64,000 nt of DNA from Patescibacteria group bacterium (GCA_041662745.1 JBAZRV010000004.1:6315-70314); one strand, 5' to 3'; counted from the first letter of the stretch, positions 293-19,400 are shown. A program made the numbers and translations. Notes: generated by a model not told the origin, from the sequence alone.

Positions 293-1066
293 ATGGGTAA
301 TCCCACGGTGAGCCGTACCCTGTCGGTACACAAGGAACACGAAGTATTATTGAAACTGGAAGCCGCCGGCCTCGATGACGATCTGGCCCAAAAAGTCATT
401 GACTCCAAAGACAACGACTTGGCCATGAAAGTCATCCGGCTGATTCAGAACGGCGGATTCGAAGCGACCACGAGCCAGAAACGCGCCCGCGAAATCATGG
501 GCACGAACATGTTCGGCGTCGAGGAAGCTATCCTCCATTTCGGCGTCAATCCCAGCAAAGCGCAACTGGCCGCTCTCTCCGAGATTCCGTTCTCCGAGGC
601 GGTACTCGCTCAATGCAAAGACACGCACGTTTTGGTGGCAATCTTCCCGCTGTCCATCCTGGAGATCCGCGGCAAGGTAAAGCGCGGTCTGTTCTACAGC
701 TACGAGGACTCCTGGTATAACAAACAGTCGTTCGCGAAAGACCGCGGCGAAGTGGGTTGGCAACTCGTGCGCAAAACGCCGGTTGACAACTCAACGGCGA
801 AGAACTGGACGGAACAGCAAGCGTTGCTGGGCAAGGAAGACGAGACGCCGACCGCCCAGGTTCTGGCCTACACCATCATCGGGCATTTCCTGGCCACAGG
901 CGAACGGCTGTTCGAAAAGATCTACGTCCGTACGTCCACTGTGGTTTTGGTCGGCGGCCGCGTCCACCTCGGCTTCTTCGATGCTGCCGGCCTCGGGGTC
1001 TACGGCCGCTGGGCTGACGATCGCCATGGCGCTCTGGCCGTCTCCTCCGCCCGGAAGTCCAACTGA
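293..1066 (+). CDS. DGR target protein A, 257 aa, of unknown fold. Its C-terminal 38 codons are the variable repeat VR1a.
   Basis: Complete ORF whose 3' end (940-1054) aligns with TR1 (2522-2636). Every mismatch falls at a TR adenine. It is a paralog of the 1370-2149 ORF, sharing the REIMGTNMFGVEEA...GWQLVRKTPV core. Confidence 0.75.
   Translation: MGNPTVSRTLSVHKEHEVLLKLEAAGLDDDLAQKVIDSKDNDLAMKVIRLIQNGGFEATTSQKRAREIMGTNMFGVEEAILHFGVNPSKAQLAALSEIPFSEAVLAQCKDTHVLVAIFPLSILEIRGKVKRGLFYSYEDSWYNKQSFAKDRGEVGWQLVRKTPVDNSTAKNWTEQQALLGKEDETPTAQVLAYTIIGHFLATGERLFEKIYVRTSTVVLVGGRVHLGFFDAAGLGVYGRWADDRHGALAVSSARKSN
940..1054 (+). repeat. DGR variable repeat VR1a
   Basis: 115-bp near-copy of TR1. Differences occur only where TR1 has A, for example TR AAC vs VR GGC/CAC/TTC. 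The 3' GC-rich end GGCCGTCTCCTCCGCCCGG is identical in TR1 and both VRs, consistent with an IMH-like element. Confidence 0.8.
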
Positions 1067-1078
1067 ACCTTGAATCTT

Positions 1079-1140
1079 TGAGGGCTTGACCCTCTTGATT
1101 CCTTGAGCCTTCGGCGCGAATTTTTTTCGTCGCCGAAGGC
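1079..1140 (+). promoter_or_regulatory. Hairpin pair downstream of VR1a: GAGGG-CTTGA-CCCTC and GCCTTCGGCG...CGCCGAAGGC. It may be a DGR-associated stem-loop and/or a terminator. The same pair recurs at 2162-2222 after VR1b.
   Basis: Inverted repeats read directly from the sequence. The same structure occurs after both VR-bearing genes. Confidence 0.4.
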
Positions 1141-1369
1141 TCACTTCTTTCCTACTATAACCATTGATAGTTTAATAATATTAGTAATTGTCCCTTAAAA
1201 TAAATGTGATAAAAAAATAGATTGAAATGAGCGTTTTGGATGCCAAAGAATTTTGGTTTCTAAAACGCTCGTCTCATTCCGAGACAAGACGTAACAACGG
1301 GATCGTATTCCCATTTCTAGTCGCCCCAAACAAAAAAAACAAGGGGCTAACAGAAAAGGAGCACATACC

Positions 1370-2149
1370 ATGAAGTGGACAGAAATCCTTGCAGGAGAAT
1401 TGCATGCAGCCGAGCAACGCCTCAGGGTCGCCTTGGGCGACAAGGCCAGCGAAGTTGTCGAGAAAATCAACAGCGATGCCGCTTTTGCGGACTCGGTCGC
1501 CGCGCAAATCATTATGATGGCGGGCGAGGCTGACAAAAGTTCCACCAGCTTGAACCCGCAATGGTTGCGCGCCCGCGAAATCATGGGCACGAATATGTTC
1601 GGCGTCGAAGAAGCCATGAAGCATTTCGGCGTCAATCCCAGCAAAGCACAGCTCGCCGCTCTCGCCGAGATTCCCTTCTCGGAGGCAGTGCTCGAACAGT
1701 GCAAGAACACGCATGTCCTGGTTGCGGTCTTTCCGCTGTCGATTCTCGACATCCGGAGCAAGGCCAATGTCAAGAAGCTGTTCTACGACCAGTCGTGGTA
1801 CAATGGCGAGTCCTTCGCCAAAAGCCGCGGCAAGATCGGCTGGCAACTCGTGCGCAAAACGCCGGTTAGCAACTCAACGTCAAAGAATTGGAGCGAACAG
1901 CAAGCTCTGATCAGTCAAGACGATGAAACGCCGACCGCCCAGGTTCTGGCCTACACCATCATCGGGCATTTCCTGGCCACGGGTGAACGGCTGTTCGAAC
2001 GCATTTACGTCCGTACATCGTCTGTGGGTTCGGGCGGCAGCCGCGTCCCCCTCGGCGACTTCGCTGCTGCCGGCCTCCGGGTCTACGGCAGCTGGGATGA
2101 CCATCGCGATGGCGATCTGGCCGTCTCCTCCGCCCGGAAGTCCAACTGA
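1370..2149 (+). CDS. DGR target protein B, 259 aa, a tandem paralog of target A. Its C-terminal VR1b spans 2023-2137.
   Basis: The core is about 80% identical to ORF 293-1066, with a divergent N-terminal 65 aa. The 3' 115 bp match TR1 with about 16 substitutions, all at TR adenines. Confidence 0.75.
   Translation: MKWTEILAGELHAAEQRLRVALGDKASEVVEKINSDAAFADSVAAQIIMMAGEADKSSTSLNPQWLRAREIMGTNMFGVEEAMKHFGVNPSKAQLAALAEIPFSEAVLEQCKNTHVLVAVFPLSILDIRSKANVKKLFYDQSWYNGESFAKSRGKIGWQLVRKTPVSNSTSKNWSEQQALISQDDETPTAQVLAYTIIGHFLATGERLFERIYVRTSSVGSGGSRVPLGDFAAAGLRVYGSWDDHRDGDLAVSSARKSN
2023..2137 (+). repeat. DGR variable repeat VR1b
   Basis: Same structure as VR1a. All mismatches against TR1 are at A positions: AAC-AAC-AAC in TR1 becomes TAC-GGC-AGC. 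Confidence 0.8.
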
Positions 2150-2521
2150 ACCTTGAATCTTTGAGGGCTTGACCCTCTTGATTCCTTGAGCCTTCGGCGC
2201 GAATTTTTTCGCAATGCCGGAGGCTTATTTTCTTTTTAAACTATTTTTTGCTATAATTATTTTGTTCGCTAATGCAGGCGCGGTTACGGCTTCGCCTCGC
2301 GGACAGCTCATCTTTTTGAGACGTCACCAGAGTATCGCCGTCCACGGATTGCGATAGCGTGTGATAAAAAGATTGAGATGGAACTTCTTGCCCGCTCTTA
2401 GTGGAGGTGATCTTACGCTATCTGCTCCCGAATAAAATACAGGAGAGAAAGGACATAGGCCTGTTTTTTAATAGGCAGTAAACCTTAATTTCCAGTGATC
2501 CTGGCGAGAGCTGGCAAATAA

Positions 2522-2636
2522 TGTGGATTCGGACGGCAACCGCGTCAACCTCGGCAACTTCGATGCTACCGGCCTCAAGGTCAACAACAACTGGGATGAC
2601 AATCGCAATGGCGATCTGGCCGTCTCCTCCGCCCGG
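2522..2636 (+). repeat. DGR template repeat TR1, the 3' remnant of a third copy of the target gene. It is noncoding and asparagine(AAC)-rich in the target reading frame.
   Basis: Translates as DSDGNRVNLGNFDATGLKVNNNWDDNRNGDLAVSSAR, with AAC codons at every position that varies in VR1a and VR1b. The upstream gene body is degraded and no start codon remains. A hairpin AACACCCTCCTG-TTAC-AGGAGGGTGTT follows at 2659-2686. Confidence 0.8.
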
Positions 2637-2700
2637 CACTTCCATCTTTTCTTACTAAAACACCCTCCTGTTACAGGAGGGTGTTTCCATTTATTATGGC

Positions 2701-3348
2701 CTACAATTCCTTAGTTGACTTAATCCAGCCGCCGAGCATTCGGCCGACTTCATCGACATCCTGTTGCAATGTCACGTACTTATTAGCCGCTAAGGATTTA
2801 GTTTCTTTCATCAGCCGCAAGAATATCCTGAGGAAATTCAGCTTTAAGCTGGCTTTTTGCAAAACCGGCAGCTTGTCTGTTTTGGACAGCTGGCTGGCCA
2901 GCAATATGCTTTCCAAAATATCCAACAGGACATTTTCACAGCGCTGCCACAAAGTGTAGCGGTCTTGCTTAGCCACGCTTTTCCTGAGGATATAAAATTG
3001 CTTGTAGAGATCATAGATTTTTTTAAAGATCGGTATGTCAAAATCTTCCATATAATTATGAAAATTTATAAAGATATTTATAATGAGATGATTTCCCTGG
3101 AGAATTTGTTTTCCGCCTGGGATAAGTTCAAGATTGGCAATTTTTGCTGGAGTTGGATTTTCCTGATCAATGCTATAATAATTATTATATGCGATTAAAA
3201 CTAAACGCCCATCATCACCCCTTAATATTTTTAAAAGACCCAACTCTTGGTCAAGAATAATCTGACCTACAAGATTAAATTCAGTTATTTCGAATGATAC
3301 AAATTCATCCATATAATTATAATTAATACCTGTATTGAATATTACCAA
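2701..3348 (-). CDS. avd: Avd-like four-helix-bundle protein (23S rRNA IVS protein family) with an in-frame 99-aa N-terminal extension. The Avd module probably starts at the internal Met (2701-3051).
   Basis: The C-terminal 116 aa (IFKKIYDLYKQFYILRKS...DEVGRMLGGWIKS) resemble the four-helix-bundle/Avd family. It is paralogous to ORF 52348-52869 (NEIGRMLGGWRKR). It lies convergent with and immediately downstream of TR1. Confidence 0.6.
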   Translation of the reverse strand: MVIFNTGINYNYMDEFVSFEITEFNLVGQIILDQELGLLKILRGDDGRLVLIAYNNYYSIDQENPTPAKIANLELIPGGKQILQGNHLIINIFINFHNYMEDFDIPIFKKIYDLYKQFYILRKSVAKQDRYTLWQRCENVLLDILESILLASQLSKTDKLPVLQKASLKLNFLRIFLRLMKETKSLAANKYVTLQQDVDEVGRMLGGWIKSTKEL

Positions 3349-3460: not shown

Positions 3461-3562
3461 CGGTGTGTTTACAAAAAAATTCGAACCGATTTCACCCCCA
3501 AAAATTGATGAGCGGGCGGATTTCCTCCCCCAACCCCTCCATCCGCCCGCCCTTTCGGATTT
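3461..3562. repeat. Inverted repeat IR-A, left arm of a perfect 102-bp pair. The right arm is 5069-5174.
   Basis: An exact reverse-complement match of about 102 bp (GGTGTGTTTACAAAAAAATTCGAACCGATTTCACCCCCAAAAATTGATGAGCGGGCGGATTTCC...) flanks the HTH and 378-aa genes. Confidence 0.85.
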
Positions 3563-3569
3563 GCGATTT

Positions 3570-4706
3570 TCAGTTTTTCTTTGGCGACAAATTCTTTTTT
3601 TCTAGCATTCTTACCACCTTAAAATCCGTAGTGATTATTGGAATATTACTTGGTATGACATCTAATATTTCTTGTGGTATCTGCTCAATATCTTTGTTGA
3701 TAACAACCGCTACAAAATCTTTCGGTGATATATTACCAATTACTCCCATATCACCCTCACTATTTTCTAATGGCCCTAGAGTATGATGTTTGTTTGGGAC
3801 TTTAAATAAAATTGATAAATCATCCCAAAAGTATTTTTTCATCTCACCGGTTTGTTCATAATCGCTTTTTACTAACTCTGGTGGATAGGTTGAAATCATG
3901 TTGGTTCCAAAAAGTAAATCCGCCATATTCCTAAAGGGGTCATCATATATTTCGAAATCCTCTTTATTTTTAGGCTCCCATCGGCTTCTCCAATTTTCCT
4001 TTTTCAAACGTTCAAATGCAAACTTAGCTAGAGGTGAACTAAAAAAATATGTCTTTATAGACTGATACACCTTATCAGTTGTTTCTTTTTTTCTTTCATC
4101 TCTTATTTCTGGCGTAACCAATAACCAGTCTTGAGCGTAATCTTCTTGTATCGTTTCAATCAAGATATTTGAAAATTCATCGCTGTTTACCATTTCGTCG
4201 TAACTTATGCTATCTAAATTAGCTCCATCGTGAACCCTTTTGTCTAAAAAGATCGACATTGCGCGAATCATCGATTTGCCAAGCTTTCCCCGCTCATGTT
4301 GTACTTCTGGACCATAGCCACCAATAGGAAAATTAACAGCATAACCCTCTTTTTGTAATCGAATTTTCCGATGGCTCAAAATTCCTTGCCCAAAATAACT
4401 TTTTAATTTATTTAAAAGTTCCTCTATTCGCACAATATCTTTTTCATTACGATCTTCAGGCGCTGCATTCAACATCTTAATTAGTCCTCCTACGAATCTA
4501 TAGCCACTGTGCTGAGCAACCTTCCTATCGGAAATTAATTGTTTAATTTCTTCAATTAATATTCTCTCATTTTCTTCTCTTTCATTATTATTTAAATCAG
4601 GACTTTCTCCGCTCATTAGCCCATCAAAACCCGCCTCATTTTCAGTTGGATACTCAAGGCCTTGAATAAAATCTTCTTCTTGTTTTGGTTGCTCGAGTTT
4701 TGGCAT
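3570..4706 (-). CDS. Hypothetical protein, 378 aa, acidic, with no recognisable motifs. It is cargo of the IR-A cassette.
   Basis: Complete ORF directly downstream of the HTH gene, with a 5-bp gap between them. It has no RT or nuclease signature I can recognise. Confidence 0.5.
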   Translation of the reverse strand: MPKLEQPKQEEDFIQGLEYPTENEAGFDGLMSGESPDLNNNEREENERILIEEIKQLISDRKVAQHSGYRFVGGLIKMLNAAPEDRNEKDIVRIEELLNKLKSYFGQGILSHRKIRLQKEGYAVNFPIGGYGPEVQHERGKLGKSMIRAMSIFLDKRVHDGANLDSISYDEMVNSDEFSNILIETIQEDYAQDWLLVTPEIRDERKKETTDKVYQSIKTYFFSSPLAKFAFERLKKENWRSRWEPKNKEDFEIYDDPFRNMADLLFGTNMISTYPPELVKSDYEQTGEMKKYFWDDLSILFKVPNKHHTLGPLENSEGDMGVIGNISPKDFVAVVINKDIEQIPQEILDVIPSNIPIITTDFKVVRMLEKKNLSPKKN

Positions 4707-4711
4707 ATTTG

Positions 4712-4924
4712 TTATTTTATTAAATCATCAACCGTAACCCCTAACCCTTTGGCAATTTTTGCCATAGTTTCAATCGTGGGATTGGGCGTAGCCCCCGATT
4801 CAATTTTAATTATTACATTATAAGCAATATCAGCCCTTTTCGAAAGTCCATCTTGAGAAATACCTAGTTTATCTCGGCATTTTTTAATATTCCTGGCTAT
4901 TGTTGGCAATTCACTTTGTTTCAT
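4712..4924 (-). CDS. XRE-family helix-turn-helix transcriptional regulator, 70 aa
   Basis: ARNIKKCRDKLGISQDGLSKRADIAYNVIIKIESG is a typical HTH_XRE (Cro/C1) motif. It sits upstream of and is co-oriented with the 378-aa ORF. Confidence 0.7.
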   Translation of the reverse strand: MKQSELPTIARNIKKCRDKLGISQDGLSKRADIAYNVIIKIESGATPNPTIETMAKIAKGLGVTVDDLIK

Positions 4925-5068
4925 AGTATAATTATACTAGTATAGTAGTTAAACAAGTTTTACTACTATAACTTTATCAAAATTCATGGATTTTATCAAT
5001 AATTTTTTTAAGCCCGCTTTTGGCCAAAATGAAGTTCGAGCCGATATTTTTTCCAGGTTCTTTGGCGG

Positions 5069-5174
5069 TTTTCAATCCGAAAGGGCGGGCGGATGGAGGG
5101 GTTGGGGGAGGAAATCCGCCCGCTCATCAATTTTTGGGGGTGAAATCGGTTCGAATTTTTTTGTAAACACACCG
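5069..5174. repeat. Inverted repeat IR-A, right arm
   Basis: Reverse complement of 3461-3562. It abuts and overlaps by 3 nt the left arm of IR-B. Confidence 0.85.
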
Positions 5175-5258
5175 CCAATCGGTATTTGCCCAATTTTCGG
5201 GCAGAAGTTTCAGAATTCGCCAACCAGTTTTGGCCTGAAATTCAAATTTTTTGGCTTC
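5172..5258. repeat. Inverted repeat IR-B, left arm of a perfect 87-bp pair. The right arm is 6683-6769.
   Basis: CCGCCAATCGGTATTTGCCCAATTTTCGGGCAGAAGTTTCAGAATTCGCC...GGCTTC matches the reverse complement exactly at 6683-6769. Confidence 0.85.
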
Positions 5259-5320
5259 TGATTCTTAAAGAATTGCCAAAAGCGGGCTTTAAAAAAATTA
5301 TTAGTTTTAATCTTAAATAT

Positions 5321-6823
5321 ATGAAGTACTTTATTTACGCTCGCAAGTCCACTGACAGCGAAGAACGGCAGATCTTAAGCATTGAATCCCAGATTGCTGA
5401 GTTGTATGAATTTGCCGCCAAAGAAAAACTGGAAATCGCCGCTTCGCTGTGCGAAGCGAAAACCGCCAAAGAACCTGGCCGAACTGTGTTCGGAGAAATG
5501 CTGGATCGGATTTGCGCCGGCGAAGCCGGAGGAATTTTGGCTTGGCACCCGGATCGGCTGGCTAGAAATTCAATTGACGGAGGCAAAATCATTTATCTTT
5601 TGGACACAGGCCAGATCAAAGACCTAAAGTTTCCCACATTTTGGTTTGACAGCACACCGCAAGGAAAATTCATGATGAACATTGCCTTTGGCCAAAGCAA
5701 GTATTACATCGACAATTTAAGCGAGAATATACGGCGAGGCCATCGGGCTAAACTAAGAAAAGGGATTTGGCCAGTCTTTGCCCCGCTTGGCTATCTAAAT
5801 AATCACAGGACCAAAGGCATAGAATTAGACAGGGAAAGGGCGCCTTTGGTCAAAAAATGCTTTGAGCTATACGCTACGGGCGAATATACCCTCAAAGCCC
5901 TAAGAGATGTAATCAGCCAAGCGGGGCTAAGAAGCTACCGAGGCAATGTTCTGGCCGTGGCCTGTGTCCAAAGAATGCTCAAGAACTCGATCTACTATGG
6001 CCTATTCAAATTTAACGACGAATTGCATGAGGGAACGCACGAGCCGATTATTTCCAAGAAACTTTTTGATGAAGCTCAACAAGTAATGAGTAATCGAGGC
6101 AAGAAGAAACGAAAGCGAAAACACGAATTTGCTTTTTCTGGATTAATGAAATGTGGGGTCTGCGATTGCCTCATAACGGCGGAAAAACAAAAAGGCCATA
6201 ATTACTATCGTTGCACCAAGAAAAAACAAACCTGCGACGAAAAATGTCTGCGCGAAGAATTACTTGTTGAACAGATGAAAGAGATAATTCAAAAAGTTTC
6301 TTTGCCTGACGATTGGGCAAAAAATATGCTCGCCGAGATTGAGTTGGAACGAGAACAAGCAAGAAAAGACGGCATGATTTTTGGGCAAAAACTGGAAGTG
6401 AGAAAAACAGAAATCGAGCAAACCATGGAACGACTGCTTGATTTGTTTATTGAAGGCAAGCATATCGAGCCAGAGGAATATCACGCTAAAAAACAAAAAC
6501 TTCTCATCGAGAAGTGTGAGCTTAATCAACAAATCAAGGATTTTGCCCAAAAAGGAAATAATTGGCTCGAACCCATGAAAGAAATGATTTTAGCCAGCAG
6601 CCAAGCCAAAATTCTATTGTCGCGAGGCGACAATTCGCAAATCCGAGCATTTCTAAAAAATATCGGCTCGAACTTCATTTTGGAAGCCAAAAAATTTGAA
6701 TTTCAGGCCAAAACTGGTTGGCGAATTCTGAAACTTCTGCCCGAAAATTGGGCAAATACCGATTGGCGGAGAGAGAGGGATTCGAACCCTCGGTACGCCC
6801 ATAATAGACGTACAACGGTTTAG
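5321..6823 (+). CDS. Large serine recombinase: resolvase/invertase catalytic domain, recombinase domain and zinc ribbon. The C-terminus is encoded within IR-B and the tRNA-Ser 3' end.
   Basis: N-terminal YARKSTDSEERQILSIESQ...HPDRLARN is a serine-recombinase catalytic motif. CGVCDC...YYRCTKKK is a Zn ribbon. The ORF reads through the IR-B right arm into the tRNA. Confidence 0.8.
   Translation: MKYFIYARKSTDSEERQILSIESQIAELYEFAAKEKLEIAASLCEAKTAKEPGRTVFGEMLDRICAGEAGGILAWHPDRLARNSIDGGKIIYLLDTGQIKDLKFPTFWFDSTPQGKFMMNIAFGQSKYYIDNLSENIRRGHRAKLRKGIWPVFAPLGYLNNHRTKGIELDRERAPLVKKCFELYATGEYTLKALRDVISQAGLRSYRGNVLAVACVQRMLKNSIYYGLFKFNDELHEGTHEPIISKKLFDEAQQVMSNRGKKKRKRKHEFAFSGLMKCGVCDCLITAEKQKGHNYYRCTKKKQTCDEKCLREELLVEQMKEIIQKVSLPDDWAKNMLAEIELEREQARKDGMIFGQKLEVRKTEIEQTMERLLDLFIEGKHIEPEEYHAKKQKLLIEKCELNQQIKDFAQKGNNWLEPMKEMILASSQAKILLSRGDNSQIRAFLKNIGSNFILEAKKFEFQAKTGWRILKLLPENWANTDWRRERDSNPRYAHNRRTTV
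6683..6769. repeat. Inverted repeat IR-B, right arm. It overlaps the 3' end of tRNA-Ser by 6 nt.
   Basis: Exact reverse complement of 5172-5258. Confidence 0.85.
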
Positions 6824-6858
6824 CAAACCGCCGCCTTCAGCCACTCGGCCATCTCTCC
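6764..6858 (-). tRNA. tRNA-Ser (anticodon GCU) with a long variable arm
   Basis: The reverse complement reads GGAGAGATGGCCGAGTGGCTGAAGGCGGCGGTTTGCTAAACCG...GGGTTCGAATCCCTCTCTCTCCGCCA. The anticodon loop is TT-GCT-AA, and CCA is encoded. Confidence 0.8.
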
Positions 6859-8181: not shown

Positions 8182-10086
8182 CTAATTGTTCTGCGATAGC
8201 ATTGCCTCAGCAAATTCCTTCTTGGCCGCTTCAATTTCCAACAACTGCCGCGGATCGGAAGTAATCAACTGATCTTCAGAATATGAGGCCACCACTTTAA
8301 CGGCCACGTGTTTGGCGCCGGCAAAGAAAATACCTTCGCCCACCGCGCTTTCCAACAACAAATATTTTTCTCCTTCAGTCAATAAAAAGGTCTTTTGCAC
8401 CAAATCAATGGCCGCCGGAGACTGCTTAAGCAATAATTGAAGGGCGGAATTATTGACAATGGCCTGGCCATAAGGAGAGGTCAAAAAATCATTAACATCC
8501 TGAGTGATGGTCGTAACGCCCAAATAATATTTGCGGCAACGTTTGACCAGAGCAAAAATGAATTTGGCTGAATCTTCGCGCTGCATCAGCCACCAAGCTT
8601 CATCTACCACTAAAATCCTCTTTTTCATTTCGGAACGGACAATATTCCAAATATAATTGACAATAGTATAGATTGCCAGCGGCTTAAGCTCATCTTCCAA
8701 ATCACGGACGGAAAAAACCACCAGCTGATTATTTAATTGGACGTTTGTCGGATGATTAAGCAGGCCGGAAAAAGTGCCTTCAGTATATTTTTTAAGGCGC
8801 AAAACAATACTGCTGCCGCCCTCCATACCTTCCAAAATATCCTGAAAATCCTGCATGATAGGCGGTTCCACCGAACGCAAATCAGCATCGGGAGTGATGT
8901 CTTTCTTGGCATAAGTTTCCAACAATGCGCGATCAATAATGGAATCCTCCTCCGGCGTAACATCGCCGATCATTAATCGCACTAACCCCTTAACGGTAAT
9001 AACGGCATTGCGGATAATATCTGCCGGTTTGGCGTCTTCACCGATAGCCCGAGGCAAGTCAAAGGGATTGATTTTGCCCTCAGAATTAAGCGAAATATCG
9101 ATGTAAGTGCCGCCAACGGCTTCACACAGGTGATTATACTCCCGTTCCGGATCAATAATGATCACATCGGTTCCAAACATCATGCTGCGCAAAACTTCCA
9201 ATTTGATCGTATATGACTTGCCGGCGCCGGAAGTGGCAAACACCACGGAATTGGCATTCTGCAAGGAGAAACGATCAAACAGGATTAAACTGTTATTGTG
9301 GCGGTTAATGCCATACAAGATGCCGTGATCGGAAGTCAAATCCGAGGATACGAACGGAAAAGAAGACGCGGCCGGCGAAGAGTTTAGATTGATATAGACT
9401 TGAAGTTCATCATACGCCATGGGCAAGGTAGAATTAAATCCTTGCTCAGCCTGATAAAACACTCGGCGAGAAAAAATCAGAGTGCCGCCGAAAAAGTTCT
9501 CAATGCGTTCCGAAGTTTTGTCCAATTCCTCCAATGTCTTGGCATATAAAGTCACATACAAAGAAAATTGAAAAAAATGCTCAATACCTTGAGTCAGATC
9601 ATCGCGCAATTTCTCCATATCGCGCAAAGCGGTTTCAGACAAAGGATCGCGGGGCGCTCCCTTTTCCGCCGCGCCGATAATCGTCGCTTCCAACACGCCG
9701 ACTTTTTTCTTTAATTGCTTCAAAATGACCGCGGCTTTAACCGGAAAAAAATACATGGCCATGTCCGCCTCAATATCCATATTGATAATCGGCGCAAACC
9801 AGCCGACGGCGATATAGCGAGGATATTCAAAAACAAAAATCGTCCGAATATAAAGCTCGCCCAACCTGATATGATCGGAATTAACCTCCAAGGCGGCCGG
9901 AGCAATCAAATCCCGGACAGAAACGACGCCGCGCCGATAAATTCTCTCCTCCTCCAACACTTCGCGCGCCGTTTGCAACTCCTTAACTTCCGCTTGTTTC
10001 TTCTGCTGTTGCGTTGGCGGCGGCGGCGGAGCATAACCGACTGAAGCCGGGGTTGTTTGCTTATTGATATCTTCTGGAGTAAACAT
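8182..10086 (-). CDS. virB4: VirB4/TrbE-family T4SS ATPase, C-terminal ATPase portion of a split gene
   Basis: Walker A VFATSGAGKSYT and Walker B ILVVDEAWWL are present, at a size and arrangement typical of VirB4. Confidence 0.75.
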   Translation of the reverse strand: MFTPEDINKQTTPASVGYAPPPPPTQQQKKQAEVKELQTAREVLEEERIYRRGVVSVRDLIAPAALEVNSDHIRLGELYIRTIFVFEYPRYIAVGWFAPIINMDIEADMAMYFFPVKAAVILKQLKKKVGVLEATIIGAAEKGAPRDPLSETALRDMEKLRDDLTQGIEHFFQFSLYVTLYAKTLEELDKTSERIENFFGGTLIFSRRVFYQAEQGFNSTLPMAYDELQVYINLNSSPAASSFPFVSSDLTSDHGILYGINRHNNSLILFDRFSLQNANSVVFATSGAGKSYTIKLEVLRSMMFGTDVIIIDPEREYNHLCEAVGGTYIDISLNSEGKINPFDLPRAIGEDAKPADIIRNAVITVKGLVRLMIGDVTPEEDSIIDRALLETYAKKDITPDADLRSVEPPIMQDFQDILEGMEGGSSIVLRLKKYTEGTFSGLLNHPTNVQLNNQLVVFSVRDLEDELKPLAIYTIVNYIWNIVRSEMKKRILVVDEAWWLMQREDSAKFIFALVKRCRKYYLGVTTITQDVNDFLTSPYGQAIVNNSALQLLLKQSPAAIDLVQKTFLLTEGEKYLLLESAVGEGIFFAGAKHVAVKVVASYSEDQLITSDPRQLLEIEAAKKEFAEAMLSQNN

Positions 10087-10090
10087 AAAG

Positions 10091-10774
10091 TTAAACGAAA
10101 TCCTCGGTTCTTAATTTGTTAACATCGACCAATTTCTCACTGCGGGAAACCGTCGGATTATAAGTATTATAAAAAACCTCAATTAACGACTGGGTGTCTA
10201 AAACTTGGGCTCGCAAACCGATACTGGCCAAACCCGTTAAAACTTTATCCACGATAGTCAACAGTTCCCGCTGTCTTTGCATGAATTGTTTCTGTCCCAA
10301 AGATAGGATCTTGGTCGGCGACAGAACATCACCGCCCCTTTGCCAGAAGCTCCTGGTTTTTGAACGGAAGGGTTCATAAGGAACTACGACCAAAAAACGC
10401 TTTGTCATAATATTTCCCAATTCTACCAATTCGGTGACATATTGCCGATACTCGGCCATTTGCATCTTTAATAAGTCATTGGTCTGTTTGACCTCGGCGT
10501 CTTTCAAAAATTCCAAATACGATTCCAAATCCAATTGCCGTGACTGGATAATGATCTGCAATGGCATATCCAAAGAATTCAAGAAACTGACATAACCGGA
10601 AATAATGGCGTTCTGTTCATCCTCGGACTTAAGCGCGAAATTAATTGAAGACACCAAAATCACCGATCGCAAAGTGCCGTTTTTCATAACAATGGTATCA
10701 TCCCTGATCTCCGCTATCTGTAAATATTTCTGAGTTGAGGGAGTGGCTTTTGTGGCTTGCCGATTTTTAGCCAT
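10091..10774 (-). CDS. VirB4 N-terminal domain protein, the split partner of 8182-10086. The ORF track extends the start to 10873.
   Basis: LQIAEIRDDTIVMKNGTLRSVILVSSINFALKSEDEQNAIISGYVSFLNSL matches the conserved start of the VirB4 N-terminal domain. Its stop lies 4 bp upstream of the ATPase ORF. Confidence 0.55.
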   Translation of the reverse strand: MAKNRQATKATPSTQKYLQIAEIRDDTIVMKNGTLRSVILVSSINFALKSEDEQNAIISGYVSFLNSLDMPLQIIIQSRQLDLESYLEFLKDAEVKQTNDLLKMQMAEYRQYVTELVELGNIMTKRFLVVVPYEPFRSKTRSFWQRGGDVLSPTKILSLGQKQFMQRQRELLTIVDKVLTGLASIGLRAQVLDTQSLIEVFYNTYNPTVSRSEKLVDVNKLRTEDFV

Positions 10775-10820
10775 AAGATAAAATCTTCTATTTATGGTCC
10801 ATCGGTTGACGGACTTATTC

Positions 10821-11270
10821 TTAACTTTGATTATTGATCCCATTCTCCCCTTGGTACACGCCTCCGGTATCAATGACCAAGGCGATTTCTGACAAGCGGG
10901 ACTTGCTGACGGGTTGACGCGCCGCCATTCTAACTGCCGGCTTTTCTTCTTTAGGCTTGGCCAAATCAGCCCTTATTTCATCTAAGGTAAAAAATTTACG
11001 CCAAACCTTGAGTTTAGGATTCTTTAAAGTTTGAAAAAAGTTAAGCAAAAATAAATGAAAGGGTTGGCCGTTTATCTTGGCAAAAGCGATAATCAGGGTT
11101 AGAGCCAAAACCGCCAAGCCGGAAACGGCGAATAAAGAAAAATCAAATATCCTATAAAAAATCACGATGATCAATCCGCCGACAATAAGTTCAATGAACT
11201 GACGGACGGAAACCGGTCCGATAATCTTATCTTCAACATCCAAAAATTGTGGCACTACCACCTGTTGCAT
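10821..11270 (-). CDS. PrgI/VirB3-like small T4SS membrane protein
   Basis: QFLDVEDKIIGPVSVRQFIELIVGGLIIVIFY followed by two TM helices resembles the PrgI family. Confidence 0.5.
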   Translation of the reverse strand: MQQVVVPQFLDVEDKIIGPVSVRQFIELIVGGLIIVIFYRIFDFSLFAVSGLAVLALTLIIAFAKINGQPFHLFLLNFFQTLKNPKLKVWRKFFTLDEIRADLAKPKEEKPAVRMAARQPVSKSRLSEIALVIDTGGVYQGENGINNQS

Positions 11271-11272
11271 AA

Positions 11273-12685
11273 TTAGTAGCGTAAATTGCGATTAAGTTCC
11301 ATAACGGCATGGAATTCGTCAAGCGACAAGGTCGGCTTGCCGGCGGTTAAGCGTTCTTTGATTACCATTTCTATATCTTTGCCCTCAGCCATGGCCGCTT
11401 GCCCCAACAAACGATAAAACTTACTGACTTCATTTTTGTGCCAAGCCGCTATGCCCTCAATTTTCTTGCCAAAATATTCTTTCTCCAACAAGTCAATTTT
11501 TTCTTTAAGCTTGGCTGTTACGACCTTCGGATCGGGAGACAGGCGTCGAAAATCAATCAAGGTCATATTCTCCAACTCCTCAATCGGTCCCATTAGTTTT
11601 TTATTGAACTTTACATCGTCCAAATTCGGTCGGCTGGTCGGTCGTGGCAGAGCCAAATTGCCAGCCAAAGTTTCTTTCGTTGCAAACGGCTGAGGTTGCG
11701 GCAAAGGCAAATCCTTAACTACCTTAAGTTTAACATCTTGCGCGCTTGGGGGCAATTGTGTTTCTTTTTTTATCGTCTTAGACAGAGGCGTTAAACCGAT
11801 TTTTTTCTCTAAAATTTCAGAATCATCGCGCGGTTTGACCATCAAATCATCAGGTATCCGGATTACCGGCAAACCGTCTTCCATTTCTATGGTCAGGGCG
11901 GAACTGTTAGCTTGCGGCTTAGCGGTAACCGTCATGACCGCTTCGTTTTCCCCGTCTTCCGTCAAATCATCCGGTGATTCTCCGGAGGCGGGCGCGGGAC
12001 TAACCGGCCCTGCTGGTCCGGCGGCAACCGCTTTAATGATCTTTAACATCCGATCAGCATCGGCTTCCGAAAAATCCATTCCCCCGACTTTGCGGCTCTT
12101 CATCAAGTTCTCCTTGGTTTCCATTTCGTCTCGAACATCTTTTAGCCGAGCGATAATAATTGAGCCCAAACGCTTAACCATTACCTCGTCAGCGGCCGGG
12201 TAACCGAATGACAAAACAATAGAAGTGGCGGCTTCAGTATAATCAATAGTCCTCGGCGACGCCTTGACTGCTTGAGTGTATTTTTTAATTTCCTCTTCAT
12301 CCTCGCGGGAAAAAGTTATAACGGTGGAATTCTTTGGTTTATTTAACGCTTCAGGCTGAAACTTTCTATCAACATCCATTAAAGAAGGAGCGACTGGGGC
12401 CTTCCCGGCCGGCCGGCCGTAATATCCGACTTCATTCACTACCTCCCTAACGCCGTTAGCTACCTGATGCGCCAAAAAATCATTAAAACCGTAATCGATT
12501 TTTAGTTTGTCCGCCAGGACATCGGTCGTCACTTCGCCCAAAAAAATACTGACCACTAAAGACGTGGATTTAATGCCGAATTTTTCATCCAAAGCATCCA
12601 GCTTATCCAATATCTCGTCCGTGGATAACTTATCCTTGACTGTCGGCGGCAATGATTTAAGTTTATTTAAATATTCTTGAGGCAT
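11273..12685 (-). CDS. Hypothetical protein, 470 aa, in the T4SS-like operon
   Basis: Complete ORF with a proline-rich linker. No motifs recognised. Confidence 0.4.
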   Translation of the reverse strand: MPQEYLNKLKSLPPTVKDKLSTDEILDKLDALDEKFGIKSTSLVVSIFLGEVTTDVLADKLKIDYGFNDFLAHQVANGVREVVNEVGYYGRPAGKAPVAPSLMDVDRKFQPEALNKPKNSTVITFSREDEEEIKKYTQAVKASPRTIDYTEAATSIVLSFGYPAADEVMVKRLGSIIIARLKDVRDEMETKENLMKSRKVGGMDFSEADADRMLKIIKAVAAGPAGPVSPAPASGESPDDLTEDGENEAVMTVTAKPQANSSALTIEMEDGLPVIRIPDDLMVKPRDDSEILEKKIGLTPLSKTIKKETQLPPSAQDVKLKVVKDLPLPQPQPFATKETLAGNLALPRPTSRPNLDDVKFNKKLMGPIEELENMTLIDFRRLSPDPKVVTAKLKEKIDLLEKEYFGKKIEGIAAWHKNEVSKFYRLLGQAAMAEGKDIEMVIKERLTAGKPTLSLDEFHAVMELNRNLRY

Positions 12686-16490: not shown

Positions 16491-19400
16491 TTAGTATCCG
16501 CAGTTGCCATAACGGTTGCAGAGACGAAAATTCAAGGACGGCGAAACATTCACCTGGGCCGCCTTATAAGGACGGGACGCATCTTCTTCGGTATTCAAGA
16601 AAGTCGGCGACTGGTCTTCTCCTCCCGCATACAGGGTCACATCGTACAAGCTCGCCTCAATCGGACTGCCGGCTTGCGCTGAATTGGTTACCACTCTTAA
16701 AACCACTCGATCGCCGATTCCCACTTTATCAGCCGGACCATCACAACTTTGATTCTGACAAACCTTAAAATAAACATCGCCGTCCGCGCCACAGGCATCC
16801 AAATAAGCCTTCCAATCGCTCGGATCAGCGCCAAATAATTGTTGCAACCAAGTCGGCTGTGTCTTATAAATATTCAACTTGATCGGACTAACCACGGGAA
16901 TTGACGCGGCATCAGCCGGTTTGACCGCTGATGTTGCCGGACAACTATTTGAACCGGAACCGTAAGAATCCTTAAAACACGGCACTAAGCGGAAAATGTC
17001 GCCGTAACGCAATTGCTTATCACTCTCGGCGTCATTAGGCGCATAAACCAAATCAAGAAAATACTCAATGCTACTGCTAACGGCATAGCCGGCAAAAGTG
17101 CTGGCATCAGCATTAAAATTAAAATTGCCCTTGCTTTCGCCCCGCTCATCATTGTATTCCCCTTCTTCTCCGGTTCCGGGAGCTCCGCCGCAACCGCCAC
17201 CCACCGTGTTTATCGCCATAAACGCCTTCCAGTCATAACTGTCATGGGCCAGCGTAATCAGACTGCCTTGGCCCAAAGGACAATCAATATCATCATCCAA
17301 TGACTTGGTTTCCGGACAAACGCCATCAGCGTAATCAATGGGAGCAACATCGGCCACGACATTGCCACAATCATCCGGACTGTAATTATCAGTATTGGGA
17401 TCAATGGCTTGTTCGCCGATATCGCAATAACCGTCGCCTATCTCTCGACAGCGGCGCCAACCGCCGGTATAAGTGGCGCAACATGTTTTCTGAGTGGAAT
17501 CAGTGGGGTCAATATTAAGATTGACCTCGTTTTCCGGCAACCAATAACAAGTGGCCGAGCAACAGGGGTTGCCACTGGAGCATTGTTGGCCCAAAGCCGA
17601 GCTGTAACTGGCCGGTTTGCATTCGGCCAAAGCATCCTGCTGTTCCGCATCATAAGTATCCCGCCTTAAGACAATCAAATCCTTAATCGTTATGGAATTA
17701 ACCGAAGCCCAATTATCCCGTACCGTTAATTTAATCGGCACGTGGAAAGCAGCGGGATTGGAAGTTGATCTTACCGGTTCTTGGCAAGCGCCTTTGGTCA
17801 AGTCGTCATTGTATTCTTCAACTGTTTCCGTGGTGCCATCGCCCAAAGGCAAGATGCCGACTTTTGTCTCGCATTCCCGTAAATTCTTATTGGCTAAGCT
17901 GTCATAGTTATAAAAATGATACAGATTAAAAGCGTTAGAGGAAGTGGGGCGGCTAGCCAGAGACAAGCCGGCGTAAGATGATACGTTGCCATCGCCCCAA
18001 TCAATATCATAAGAACGAATAGGCACCTGATCCGGATCAATCTTGGAATTAAAGCTTACTTTAACCGCGCCGATACTGTTAACAATAGTGGGGTTGACCT
18101 GGGCTAAAGTGAATTCCGGCCTAACCAAGCAGAATGACAAATAAGTATTGGCGGGACGGGAGTTATTGGGACAATACAACGTCGGCAAACTCCAAACCGA
18201 GTTATTAGAGCTGATGGCGCCGGAAATATCAGTATAATGCCCTATCAAGGGATCGCTGGATTTATCCGCCTGCCATTGCCATAAACTGTAAGAACGCCCG
18301 AATAATTGCAACAAGTCCGGCTTGCTGACGGAGAAATTGTCAACATAGTATAGGGAATTATCTGATTTCTGACCGGCGCGCGCTTGGTAGGGTGGCGCAC
18401 TGCCGCCGGGGAATTCATAAAAAATCGGTTGATTACCGCCGGAGTCGGGACGAGTATCCCATTCATTGGGGTATTGGCCGTTTTCCGGCGCCACCGTAGA
18501 GCCGAAAGGTTTGTAATCGGTAGCGTAATTGTAGCCGACGGCCGCATAAATGCGGCGATAAATCAGCTTTTTATCCCTCAAAATGCCGATTGCTCCGAAA
18601 TTCCTATCATTGACGCAAAAATATTTATAATTAATCCGACAATCATTTATGGCAATAGAGGGGGTATCTTTGGCAAAACTATGAACTTGAAAATAATTAT
18701 TATCCGCTGATTCTCCGATGGGACGAGAGTTATAAGCAATCTCGCAGTTCAGGGCATTAGCCTGATTAAGATAAGCGGTGCGTTGTCTTCCCTCCAAGGA
18801 TATACCTTCAGCGCAATATAATTTGCGCGTCGGATCATCGGGATCGTTGACTCCCTGACCATTATCAATGCCAATAAAATTCTGGCATAAATTCAAGGGA
18901 TAAAAACCTAATAAAGCGCCATCAGCATCATAGAGGCGACGGCTTTCAGCCAAACAATAAGCGGAACTGTAGAAACAGCCATCAGAAAACAACTCGGCAT
19001 TGCTTGGCGTAACAATGCCCACACCGGAAGGAATAGCATCTCCGGAAATTGAACTGTCTTTAACGCAATCTTTGCCCAAATAATCCAAATATTGCGAACC
19101 GGACGATAAACGACTGGCCCAAGCTTTGTTCTCATTGCCGGAATTAACCACTTGAACCAACTTGTAGCAATACTCCACCACCTGTTTGCCGGCAAAATTA
19201 CCCACAACGGCTATACCGCCCATTTTATCGCCCATGCCGGCCGGCTTATTGAAATCCAAGAACTTGGCAAACCCCAGAACATCTCCGGTTACTGCGGGAT
19301 TGGGGTCGGTCAGATCCTTGCCGAACTCCGAATCTTCATCAGTAATAATCCTTAAGCCGAAAGTGGAAATTCCCAAGTCTACACCGGCCGCCTGGATAAG

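What the first reader, a model, noticed from the sequence alone, without database searches (positions are those of the whole stretch)
3461..6858. Two contiguous perfect inverted-repeat cassettes carrying a large serine recombinase, abutting tRNA-Ser
IR-B (87 bp, 100% identical arms) encloses only a 500-aa large serine recombinase. The recombinase C-terminal codons are encoded by the right IR arm and by the last 6 nt of tRNA-Ser. IR-A (102 bp, 100% identical arms) lies immediately next to it, sharing 3 nt, and encloses an XRE HTH gene plus a 378-aa protein of unknown function. Perfect long IRs around a recombinase are not the usual layout for large serine recombinase integrative elements, which use short att sites. 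They are more like invertible segments (invertons) or a new IS-like element. The pair sits where the RT of DGR locus 1 would be expected, and next to a tRNA, so it may mark an integrated mobile element that also carries DGR locus 1.
Basis: partly seen in the sequence, partly recalled or inferred. Interest (0 to 1): 0.8.

Follow-up and report, generated by a model that had tools for sequence, protein, structure and literature searches.

The report
tRNA-Ser integrative element with inverted internal att site
The two perfect inverted repeats are real and mark a 3.3-kb mobile element inserted at the end of a tRNA-Ser gene; it belongs to a large, apparently undescribed family, found in many bacterial phyla, that carries an inverted copy of its own attachment site between the recombinase gene and a regulator-plus-cargo module.

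Summary
IR-A (3461-3561 / 5074-5174, 101 nt) and IR-B (5172-5258 / 6683-6769, 87 nt) are both perfect and share 3 nt. They are not an assembly artefact and not MITEs.

Window 3461-6769 is a small integrative element at the 3' end of tRNA-Ser(GCT). It carries a large serine recombinase (LSR), an XRE regulator and one orphan cargo gene. The same layout recurs in more than 30 independent loci from Patescibacteria, Gammaproteobacteria, Kiritimatiellia, Dehalococcoidales and others, nearly always abutting a tRNA-Ser gene.

The outer arms are the element's half of attL and attR. The abutting inner arms are an inverted copy of the circle junction (attP). The crossover core (CGG) lies inside the LSR ORF, so integration replaces the last ~15 native codons with antisense tRNA.

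Arms are 98-100% identical within an element but ~74% identical between elements, which indicates concerted evolution. Both orientations of each module occur in the family. LSR-less derivatives and tandem arrays exist.

The DGR is outside the element, and its RT lies 45 kb away.

Shown: the anatomy, the target and the family. Inferred: that module inversion acts as a switch for the recombinase.

The parts
3461..3561 (.). Arm P, the outer arm of IR-A and the element-side half of attL. It starts at the core CGG (3461-3463). In the LSR frame it encodes the native LSR tail RCVYKKIRTDFTPKN* (3461-3508). It then carries a GC-rich hairpin (3512-3550).
3563..3594 (.). Segment q. It is the 94% reverse complement of LSR codons at 5408-5439 and overlaps the stop of the 378-aa ORF in a different reading frame.
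   Evidence: conserved in relatives
3570..4706 (-). The 378-aa cargo ORF, an orphan with no family match.
4712..4924 (-). XRE/HTH_3 regulator. It is conserved in the family next to the centre and diverges from the LSR gene.
5003..5073 (.). Segments r (5003-5024), A (5024-5052) and B (5053-5073). Segment r is the inverted twin of r' and looks like a promoter for XRE. A and B are reverse complements of LSR pieces 6655-6683 and 5458-5478.
5074..5258 (.). The centre: arm P' (5074-5174) abutting arm D (5172-5258) at the core CCG (5172-5174). This is an inverted copy of the circle junction, i.e. of attP.
5275..5296 (+). Segment r', overlapping a promoter-like site (TTGCCA-17-AATTAT, 5273-5301) 20 nt upstream of the LSR ATG.
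5321..6823 (+). Large serine recombinase, 500 aa. The last 18 codons are antisense tRNA-Ser.
6683..6769 (.). Arm D', the outer arm of IR-B. It encodes LSR residues about 455-483 and is the element-side half of attR. It ends at the core CGG (6767-6769).
6764..6858 (-). tRNA-Ser(GCT), the integration target. Its terminal CCA is supplied by arm D'.

Best explanation
Window 3461-6769 is a 3.3-kb site-specific integrative element. Its large serine recombinase inserted it at the 3' end of tRNA-Ser(GCT), with the crossover inside CGG at the discriminator end of the acceptor stem.

The element has three att-type sites:
- attL: host flank | P, at 3461.
- attR: D' | tRNA, at 6769.
- An internal site P' | D, at 5172-5174, which is the exact reverse complement of the junction D' | P that the excised circle would have.

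The two 'cassettes' follow directly from this. IR-A pairs the P half of attL with the P' half of the internal site and encloses XRE and the cargo gene. IR-B pairs the D half of the internal site with the D' half of attR and encloses the LSR.

Because the core lies 15 codons before the native stop of the LSR gene, integration swaps the conserved native tail (RC[AVL][FY][EK][KN]IRT[DE]F...) for an antisense-tRNA tail.

Inferred steps:
- The LSR recombines D' | P with the tRNA-Ser end by the usual attP x attB chemistry.
- The long identical arms let each module invert, either by LSR action at the cores or by homologous recombination between the arms.
- Flipping the LSR module would move the gene from a tail-swapped position convergent with the tRNA to a native-tailed position downstream of, and co-oriented with, the tRNA.
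- In that co-oriented state the short repeats r/r', B/B' and A/A' become direct repeats, and deletion between them yields LSR-less derivatives.
For: Anatomy and boundaries:
- Self-comparison of 30 genome loci shows the same IR-B at -150..-66 versus +1362..+1448 relative to the LSR ATG. IR-A (101-117 nt) always abuts it by 3-9 nt, around cassettes of 0.8-5.1 kb.
- The junction alignment shows the centre equals the D' end plus the P start in every locus, and the smallest shared core is CGG.
- In L012 the distal arm lies 24 nt from the next tRNA gene of a tRNA-Ser cluster.

Target:
- A tRNA-Ser gene (GCT, GGA, CGA, TGA or ACT) lies on the opposite strand with its 3' end at +1444 in 15 of 19 loci scanned.

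Consistency with LSR chemistry:
- ATTCGAAC lies 15 nt from the core in P and 10 nt from it in the tRNA. This matches the 5-bp attP/attB offset of the DBD2 motif (PMC11722253).

Tail swap:
- Among 120 homologue clusters, 64 have antisense-tRNA tails and 12 have P-encoded tails.
- P keeps an open frame, and variation is concentrated at third codon positions (entropy 0.89 versus 0.38 and 0.24).

Concerted evolution:
- Arms are 98-100% identical within most elements, against a median of 73-75% between elements.

Orientation variants:
- L064 and L101 have the order tRNA, then D, then the LSR gene, all co-oriented. They fall in two different clades.
- L118 has XRE, cargo and LSR co-directional.
- 46 LSR-less 'mini' loci and 5 truncated loci are exactly the deletions expected between r'/r and B'/B' when these repeats are direct.
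- Tandem arrays occur in L037 and L039.

Not an artefact:
- L001, L002, L115, and L004 at 92% identity, all reproduce the structure.
Against: - No read-level or contig-level evidence shows both orientations in this strain. L115 resolves IR-B in the window's orientation only.
- Canonical LSRs do not recombine attP with attL or attR, so LSR-catalysed inversion would be non-canonical.
- The D-side half-site shows no recognisable dyad symmetry with the P side (my reading).
- No circular form and no empty site for this insertion were found.
- No RDF candidate has been identified.
- Orientation differences between lineages could be rare accidents of homologous recombination rather than a regulated switch.
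- Most P-tailed LSRs that I inspected read into a neighbouring element's arm in a tandem array. The codon-like pattern in P rests on only 18 related variants and a partly constraining search pattern.
Confidence: 0.6

Rival explanations
1. It is the same integrative element, but the internal inverted att copy and the short repeats are only a relic of an ancestral inverted duplication, namely a second, disrupted LSR copy. Gene conversion keeps the arms identical. Inversions are rare, RecA-driven and without function.
For: - The fragments r, q, B and A are pieces of the LSR gene and its upstream region.
- Read as a circle, cassette A reproduces the order R-(L1)-q'-(palindrome)-B'-A'-R of the truncated LSR remnants in L060 and L086.
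- Concerted evolution is what gene conversion between inverted repeats produces.
- The standard orientation dominates among the genome and metagenome loci examined: 15 loci with the LSR reading into the tRNA against 2 full-length flipped ones, L064 and L101.
Against: - The architecture, including its exact inner arm boundaries, is retained from Patescibacteria to a Deltaproteobacteria relative at 50% aa identity. Such persistence is hard to explain without selection.
- Elements with decayed arms are a minority: L004, L015, L018, L035.
Confidence: 0.25
2. IR-B is an autonomous IS-like transposon with 87-bp terminal inverted repeats whose transposase is the LSR. IR-A is a separate non-autonomous, MITE-like cassette that happens to sit beside it.
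For: - The recombinase is exactly enclosed by perfect terminal repeats.
- Many homologues sit on 1.6-1.9 kb contigs, about the size of the IR-B cassette.
Against: - The arms are single-copy in the window.
- The LSR cassette is never seen without P' on one side and tRNA-Ser, or another element's P arm, on the other.
- A distal P arm is present wherever enough upstream DNA exists.
- Tandem arrays repeat the whole A+B unit.
- The short contigs are explained by assembly-graph breaks at 87-117-nt inverted repeats.
- There are no target-site duplications.
Confidence: 0.05
3. It is an assembly or amplification artefact, such as a chimeric fold-back, that created the inverted duplications.
For: The arms are perfectly identical, and a 256-bp stretch (5003-5258) is built entirely of reverse-complement copies of other local sequence.
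Against: The same mosaic is present in independent assemblies made with different assemblers and from different samples, and at 92-96% sequence divergence. It is also present in more than 30 loci from unrelated taxa, including inside a 691-kb contig.
Confidence: 0.01
4. It is the lysogeny module (integrase plus repressor) of a prophage, either a remnant or part of a larger phage that includes the DGR.
For: - The LSR matches phrog_95 integrase.
- In L004 the module lies next to phage lysis and tail genes.
- DGRs are often carried by phages.
Against: - The family boundaries enclose only 2.7-7 kb holding the LSR, XRE and one to a few cargo genes.
- No relative was found in IMG/VR, either by protein or by a conserved 23-mer.
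- Flanks differ between loci.
- The DGR flank is not shared by relatives.
Confidence: 0.05

Closest known systems
Large serine integrases of phages and integrative elements (phiC31, Bxb1, A118/LI, SPbeta SprA)
   Same: - The domain order is the same: resolvase catalytic domain with Ser10 in YARKST, then recombinase domain, then zinc ribbon with a coiled-coil region.
- Insertion is site-specific with a tiny shared core.
- A motif lies 5 nt further from the core on the element side than on the host side.
   Different: - The att core lies inside the integrase ORF.
- The element keeps a second, inverted attP between the integrase and the regulator.
- The arms are 87-170 nt of identical sequence rather than sites of about 50 bp.
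- No RDF is evident.
- The target is the 3' end of any tRNA-Ser isoacceptor, across several phyla.
- Sequence similarity to solved integrases is weak (E about 1e-7).
LSR transposons Tn4451 (TnpX) and Tn5397 (TndX) (from my own knowledge)
   Same: They are small to medium elements moved by a single large serine recombinase through a circular intermediate, with no separate directionality factor reported as essential.
   Different: Those elements insert at many GA-containing sites that resemble their joint, and they have no internal inverted joint. This family is tRNA-Ser specific and has the tripartite att layout.
Hin/Gin/Cin invertible segments (small serine invertases; from my own knowledge)
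   Same: A serine recombinase gene is enclosed by inverted repeats (as hin is inside the H segment), and two orientation states exist.
   Different: Invertases are small, use 26-bp hix/gix sites plus a Fis enhancer, and are not mobile integrative elements. Here, inversion has been shown only between lineages.
Integration-dependent switches in which att lies inside a gene: mycobacteriophage BPs/Brujita (PMC4557955, PMC3694055), and SSV1-type integrases (own knowledge)
   Same: Integration changes the C-terminus of an element-encoded protein because attP lies within its coding sequence.
   Different: Those systems use tyrosine integrases, and in BPs it is the repressor that is truncated. Here the serine integrase itself is altered, and an inverted spare copy of the site is retained.
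Yeast 2-micron plasmid FLP/FRT inverted repeats (own knowledge)
   Same: In its inferred circular form, the element would be a small circle split into two unique halves by a pair of inverted recombination-site repeats, with the recombinase in one half.
   Different: The 2-micron plasmid uses a tyrosine recombinase, replicates as a plasmid, and uses inversion for copy-number amplification. Nothing here indicates a replication origin.
Tycheposons and other small tRNA-targeting cargo islands (bioRxiv 10.1101/2020.12.28.424599)
   Same: They are compact elements at tRNA genes that carry variable cargo and form tandem arrays.
   Different: They come from a different recombinase lineage and hosts, and no internal inverted att copy has been described for them.

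Membership tests
Large serine recombinase (integrase) family | An N-terminal resolvase catalytic domain with the nucleophilic serine, followed by a recombinase domain and a zinc-ribbon domain. | tested here: met
   PF00239 (2e-16), PF07508 (3e-14) and PF13408 (6e-7), above the curated cut-offs. Motif YARKSTDSE at residues 6-14. phrog_95 integrase, 7e-73. A118 integrase recombinase and zinc-ribbon domains, 1.7e-7.
Large serine recombinase (integrase) family | attP and attB half-sites whose outer (DBD2) motif is offset by about 5 bp. | tested here: met
   ATTCGAAC starts 15 nt after CGG in arm P and 10 nt after CGG in the tRNA, on one half-site only. The rule is quoted from PMC11722253. The D-side and host-side halves show no recognisable motif.
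Large serine recombinase (integrase) family | Catalysis of attP x attB recombination, with directionality set by an RDF. | not testable with these tools
tRNA-targeting integrative element / genomic island | The same recombinase lineage is found repeatedly at the same tRNA position, with unrelated flanks beyond the element. | tested here: met
   tRNA-Ser 3' end at +1444 in 15 of 19 loci. Flanks differ and the core CGG is shared. In L012 the distal arm is 24 nt from the next tRNA gene.
tRNA-targeting integrative element / genomic island | An empty site or an excised circle is observed. | tested here: not met
   Look-ups with the flanking ComF-like and bAvd proteins returned only occupied sites. 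No circular contig was identified.
Inverton (phase-variable invertible segment) | A segment bounded by inverted repeats. | tested here: met
Inverton (phase-variable invertible segment) | Both orientations are present within one population. | tested here: inconclusive
   Both orientations exist between lineages. In the window's own strain, L115 shows one orientation for IR-B, and contigs simply break at IR-A. No reads were available.
Insertion sequence / MITE | Multiple copies at unrelated sites, terminal inverted repeats at the element ends, and target-site duplication. | tested here: not met
   The arms are single-copy in the window. The element's ends (P and D') are not inverted repeats of each other. 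Insertion is site-specific.
Diversity-generating retroelement (as carrier of this cassette) | RT, TR, VR and Avd lie within the same mobile unit. | tested here: not met
   bAvd (2701-3348), TR and VR lie outside the left boundary at 3461. The RT with YADD and LGNLTSQ motifs is at 51426-52565. Relatives of the element have no DGR flank.

The most novel reading that the evidence does not exclude
The internal inverted att copy and the long identical arms form a self-contained two-state switch that replaces a recombination directionality factor.

Inverting the LSR module would toggle the integrase between two forms. In one it is 'parked': tail-swapped and opposed by convergent tRNA transcription. 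In the other it is native-tailed and driven by read-through from the tRNA. This would decide whether the element stays integrated, excises, or captures and exchanges cargo modules.

The same design would allow one recombinase lineage to colonise the 3' end of tRNA-Ser in many bacterial phyla.
Probability: 0.25. Interest if true: 0.85.

Novelty: new variant of a known kind. Interest (0 to 1): 0.68.

Why it matters
If the family-level picture holds, this is a very widespread class of minimal mobile elements. The protein search returned 7,898 proteins at E <= 1e-20 and was capped at 8,000 candidates. Close relatives (65-81% aa identity among the best hits, 72-97% among the genome loci, apart from one Deltaproteobacteria locus at 50%) occur from Patescibacteria to Gammaproteobacteria, Nitrospira, Kiritimatiellia and Dehalococcoidales.

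Each element delivers one or a few cargo genes to the 3' end of tRNA-Ser. The cargo seen includes restriction-modification systems, a UvrA/mad3-like ATPase, methyltransferases and orphan genes.

Three features are unusual for serine integrases and bear on how directionality and integrase expression can be controlled without an RDF:
- The att core lies inside the integrase ORF.
- A second, inverted attP is kept inside the element.
- The 90-170-nt arms evolve in concert.

An integrase that recognises a target conserved in essentially all bacteria would also interest people building broad-host-range integration tools.

For this window specifically, the result removes a false lead: the cassette is not part of the DGR and does not explain the missing RT.

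Tried and rejected
- **Assembly or MDA artefact:** rejected, because independent and diverged assemblies reproduce the mosaic.
- **MITE or multicopy repeat:** rejected; the arms occur once per pair in 64 kb.
- **Structured RNA:** the only Rfam matches here are the tRNA and its antisense look-alike, Plastid-psbI-rps4 at 6767-6823. The centre folds well as RNA (z = -5.6), but that follows trivially from its inverted repeats.
- **Phage origin:** no relatives in IMG/VR, either by protein patterns or by a conserved 23-mer.
- **Function of the 378-aa protein:**
  - No Pfam or PHROG hit, and only a marginal PADLOC hit (HerA, E = 7.7e-4, 16 bits).
  - Only 3 database relatives, two of which share just the N-terminus.
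  - Single-sequence AlphaFold gave pLDDT 43, so no fold search was run.
- **Empty site or alternative isomer of this strain:** look-ups with the ComF-like and bAvd neighbours gave only the occupied, standard arrangement.
- **Exact LSR protein look-up:** not on record.
- **Literature:** five full-text searches found no description of this architecture.
- **Crossover inside the T-loop TTCGAA:** I considered this and rejected it, because the tRNA acceptor 3' strand is host-specific and intact at every junction.
- **Origin of the short fragments q, B and A:** I could not derive a convincing single-event origin. The best reading is that they are remnants of a second, disrupted LSR copy.


Full report
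**1. The observation**

The repeat finder reports two perfect inverted repeats:
- IR-A: 3461-3561 / 5074-5174, 101 nt.
- IR-B: 5172-5258 / 6683-6769, 87 nt.

Their inner arms overlap by 3 nt (5172-5174). A perfect inverted repeat of this length is expected about 1e-43 times in 64 kb, and neither arm sequence occurs anywhere else in the window.

IR-B encloses one gene, a 500-aa large serine recombinase (LSR). Its ATG is at 5321, and it has Resolvase, Recombinase and zinc-ribbon domains. IR-A encloses an XRE HTH gene (4712-4924, minus) and a 378-aa ORF (3570-4706, minus). tRNA-Ser(GCT) occupies 6764-6858 on the minus strand.

Two points need correcting or adding:
- The LSR ORF runs 60 nt into the tRNA on the antisense strand (stop at 6821-6823), not 6 nt.
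- Region 5003-5258 is entirely a patchwork of reverse-complement copies of nearby sequence. Besides the two big arms there are four short segments:
  - r: 5003-5024, matching 5275-5296.
  - A: 5024-5052, matching 6655-6683.
  - B: 5053-5073, matching 5458-5478.
  - q: 3563-3594, matching 5408-5439.

**2. It is not an artefact**

Exact-protein look-ups retrieved independent assemblies:
- L001 (ENA, MEGAHIT) is 96% identical overall, colinear with window 5150-2130, and has both IR-A arms 100% identical to the window's.
- L002 and L115 (JGI sample 3300014208) are 99.9-100% identical and together cover 7689-2649 in the window's arrangement.
- A 92%-identical element in another Patescibacteria genome (L004/L005) has the same repeats in the same places, but they are imperfect there: 94% for IR-A and 86% for IR-B.

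**3. It is a family**

The LSR has thousands of homologues. The search returned 7,898 proteins at E <= 1e-20 and was capped at 8,000 candidates. The best-listed hits are 65-81% identical, from MAGs assigned to Patescibacteria, Nitrospira, Brocadia, Saganbacteria and others.

A scan of one genome per species returned 30 loci. One of them lies inside a 691-kb gammaproteobacterial contig.

Self-comparison of these loci shows a fixed geometry relative to the LSR ATG:
- IR-B at -150..-66 versus +1362..+1448.
- IR-A (101-117 nt) with its inner arm overlapping the IR-B arm by 3-9 nt.
- A at -308..-281 versus +1334..+1361.
- B at -280..-261 versus +137..+156.
- r at -340..-310 versus -51..-15.
- q beside the distal arm versus +84..+119.

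Even a Deltaproteobacteria relative at 50% aa identity (L032) has a perfect 95-nt repeat around its LSR. The distal IR-A arm is present wherever enough upstream sequence exists, and the cassettes range from 0.8 to 5.1 kb.

**4. Target and boundaries**

In 15 of 19 loci scanned, a tRNA-Ser gene lies on the opposite strand with its 3' end at +1444. The anticodons seen are GCT, GGA, CGA, TGA and ACT.

Aligning the three junctions of each element gives the key result. The centre, read on the LSR strand, is always the end of D' followed by the start of P:
- Centre: ...aacTGGCGG|TGTGCGTTCGAAAAAATTCGAAC...
- Right junction: the same D' end followed by antisense tRNA, ...TGGCGG|AGAGGGAGGGATTCGAACCC.
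- Left junction: unrelated flank followed by the same P start.

The smallest block shared by all three sites is CGG, and that is exactly the 3 nt shared by the two repeats in the window.

The structure is therefore attL (flank|P), an inverted attP (P'|D), and attR (D'|tRNA). The element is 3461-6769.

In L012 the distal arm lies 24 nt from the next gene of a tRNA-Ser cluster, which fixes the left boundary.

Arm P mimics the tRNA half-site. ATTCGAAC (the T-loop) sits 15 nt from the core in P and 10 nt from it in the tRNA. This is the 5-bp offset that distinguishes P-type from B-type half-sites of serine integrases (PMC11722253). I could not recognise a matching motif on the D side or on the host-flank side.

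The other tRNAs in the window do not encode CCA. The CCA after tRNA-Ser comes from the element.

**5. The att core is inside the integrase gene**

Read in the LSR frame, arm P encodes RCVYKKIRTDFTPKN*. Across the family the consensus is RC[AVL][FY][EK][KN]IRT[DE]F... Variation is concentrated at third codon positions (mean entropy 0.89, against 0.38 and 0.24 at positions 1 and 2). This figure rests on 18 variants and a partly constraining search pattern.

Among the 120 best homologue clusters, 64 end in antisense-tRNA tails (...NWRRGRDSNPR...) and 12 end in P-encoded tails.

The circular form, or an array neighbour, therefore gives the integrase its native C-terminus, and integration at the tRNA replaces it. 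The nearest precedents are systems in which att lies inside a gene: mycobacteriophage BPs (PMC4557955, PMC3694055), and SSV1 (from my own knowledge).

**6. Contents**

XRE is conserved next to the centre. The gene or genes beyond it vary:
- orphan proteins (the window, L004, L006, L012);
- a UvrA/mad3-like ABC ATPase;
- a SAM methyltransferase;
- HD plus DUF1653;
- DUF7670;
- TaqI-like or MjaI-like restriction enzymes, with a methylase.

The window's 378-aa protein has no informative relatives, and its AlphaFold model was unusable.

Segments r and r' carry the same promoter-like sequence, TTG(C/G)CC-17-AATTAT, facing XRE and the LSR respectively. This is based for r' and on my own reading for r. 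It gives the r/r' repeat a simple explanation as twin divergent promoters.

**7. Dynamics**

*Concerted evolution.* Arms are 98-100% identical within most elements, but the median identity between elements is only 73-75%. The arms therefore evolve in concert.

*Scan for the opposite LSR orientation.* I searched metagenome contigs for a pattern that can match only if the LSR module lies in the opposite orientation: tRNA T-loop ... CCGCCA, then arm D, then r'. It hit 75 contigs, and 69 of them have a tRNA-Ser at the match.
- L064 and L101 carry full LSR genes co-oriented with and downstream of the tRNA. In a neighbour-joining tree they fall in two different clades among standard elements.
- L050, L060, L080, L086 and L094 keep only LSR codons 1-57 (1-75 in L080), fused at B' to A'-r.
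- 46 contigs are LSR-less 'minis' with the order tRNA | D-g-r-XRE-cargo. Where the contig is long enough, a single P' arm closes the mini 0.85-7 kb downstream.

These are exactly the deletions expected between B'/B' and r'/r, which are direct repeats only when the LSR module is flipped relative to the XRE module.

*Other arrangements.*
- L118 has XRE, cargo and LSR co-directional, so the other module can also be found flipped.
- Tandem arrays occur: two elements head to tail in L037, and an element plus a second LSR element next to tRNA-Ser in L039. There the upstream LSR reads into its neighbour's P arm.

Both modules have therefore changed orientation repeatedly in the history of the family. 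I have no evidence that they do so within the window's own population.

**8. Mechanism: what is shown and what is inferred**

Shown by sequence comparison:
- the boundaries, the target and the core;
- the internal inverted att copy;
- the tail swap;
- concerted evolution of the arms;
- the existence of orientation isomers, deletion derivatives and arrays.

Inferred:
- The LSR integrates the element by D'|P x tRNA-Ser recombination.
- The identical arms permit module inversion. The aligned cores are compatible, so LSR-catalysed inversion is chemically possible. However, canonical integrases do not pair attP with attL or attR, so homologous recombination between the 87-117-nt arms is at least as likely and would also explain the homogenisation.
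- Inversion of the LSR module would switch the integrase between a tail-swapped copy facing the tRNA and a native-tailed copy downstream of the tRNA.

The main rival is that the internal site and the short fragments are a tolerated relic of an ancestral inverted duplication of the LSR 3' end. In support of that rival, cassette A read as a circle has the same fragment order as the truncated LSR remnants.

**9.

The DGR pieces lie outside the element: two paralogous target genes (293-1066 and 1370-2149), a TR around 2522-2636, and bAvd (2701-3348). No relative of the element has them as a flank. The only RT in the window, with YADD and LGNLTSQ motifs, is at 51426-52565. The element therefore neither carries DGR locus 1 nor replaces its RT.

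It is not an IS. It is single-copy and site-specific, and its two ends are not inverted repeats of each other.

The many 1.6-1.9-kb LSR contigs in databases are what assemblers produce when 87-117-nt inverted repeats break the graph.

**10. Novelty**

Five full-text searches found no description of an LSR element with an internal inverted attP, of tRNA-Ser-specific LSR mini-elements, or of this family. The library is incomplete, so prior description cannot be excluded.

I rate it a new variant of a known kind: a serine-integrase integrative element with an architecture not described before.

Noticed in passing
window 293-3348 and 51426-52565: DGR locus 1 has two paralogous target genes (293-1066 and 1370-2149; 82-88% identical repeats with 1083-nt spacing), a third repeat copy at 2522-2636 (probably the TR) and a bAvd gene on the opposite strand (2701-3348), but no adjacent RT. 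The only RT-like ORF (YADD, LGNLTSQ) is 45 kb away, at 51426-52565 (minus). The target/TR region has 55-60% GC against about 40-45% for its surroundings.
   Followed up: partly
window 6764-6769, 41890, 47240, 47359: The other three tRNA genes in the window do not encode the 3' CCA. tRNA-Ser(GCT) appears to, but those bases belong to arm D' of the element.
   Followed up: yes
window 6767-6823 (+): The Rfam match to 'Plastid-psbI-rps4 3'UTR' (64.6 bits, just under its gathering score of 68) is the antisense strand of tRNA-Ser. It is a look-alike of plastid trnS, not a real element.
   Followed up: yes
window 3510-3552 and 5083-5125: Each P arm carries a conserved GC-rich hairpin (GCGGGCGGAT ... 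ATCCGCCCGC) whose loop is C-rich on one strand and G-rich on the other (GGGCGGGCGGATGGAGGGGTTGGGGGAGG). It may be a bidirectional terminator or insulator, and it has G-quadruplex potential. Relatives (L036, L037, L118) have the same feature.
   Followed up: no
window 5440-5458: Inside the LSR gene, segments q' and B' flank a small palindrome (CGCTTCGC-TGT-GCGAAGCG). In cassette A the same two segments flank the P arms. Both q' and B' contain CCGCCAAAGAA. The meaning is unknown; they may be remnants of a second LSR copy or a pseudo-att site.
   Followed up: partly
L040-L114 (metagenome contigs): There are dozens of LSR-less elements at tRNA-Ser consisting only of arm D, the r promoter-like box, XRE, cargo and arm P'. 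They look like non-autonomous relatives that a full element could mobilise in trans.
   Followed up: partly
L037 3051-3220 / 6391-6560; L039; L117: Tandem arrays of different family members occur at one tRNA-Ser. In L037 the repeat spans the whole att (170 nt, 100% identical). Cargo includes complete restriction-modification pairs (an MjaI-like enzyme plus an N6/N4 methylase in L117; a TaqI-like enzyme in L036).
   Followed up: partly
L004 11470-21470: In one Patescibacteria genome the element sits directly beside phage-like lysis and tail genes (amidase, LysM, SU10 adaptor, BppU_N, beta-helix). Its LSR reads into a degenerate P-like sequence, which suggests that a prophage shares the same attachment lineage.
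   Followed up: no
window 8182-12685 and 16491-28109: Downstream of the tRNA lie a TraG/VirB4-like P-loop ATPase (634 aa) with small membrane-protein neighbours, and further on a 3,872-aa ORF. These were not examined.
   Followed up: no
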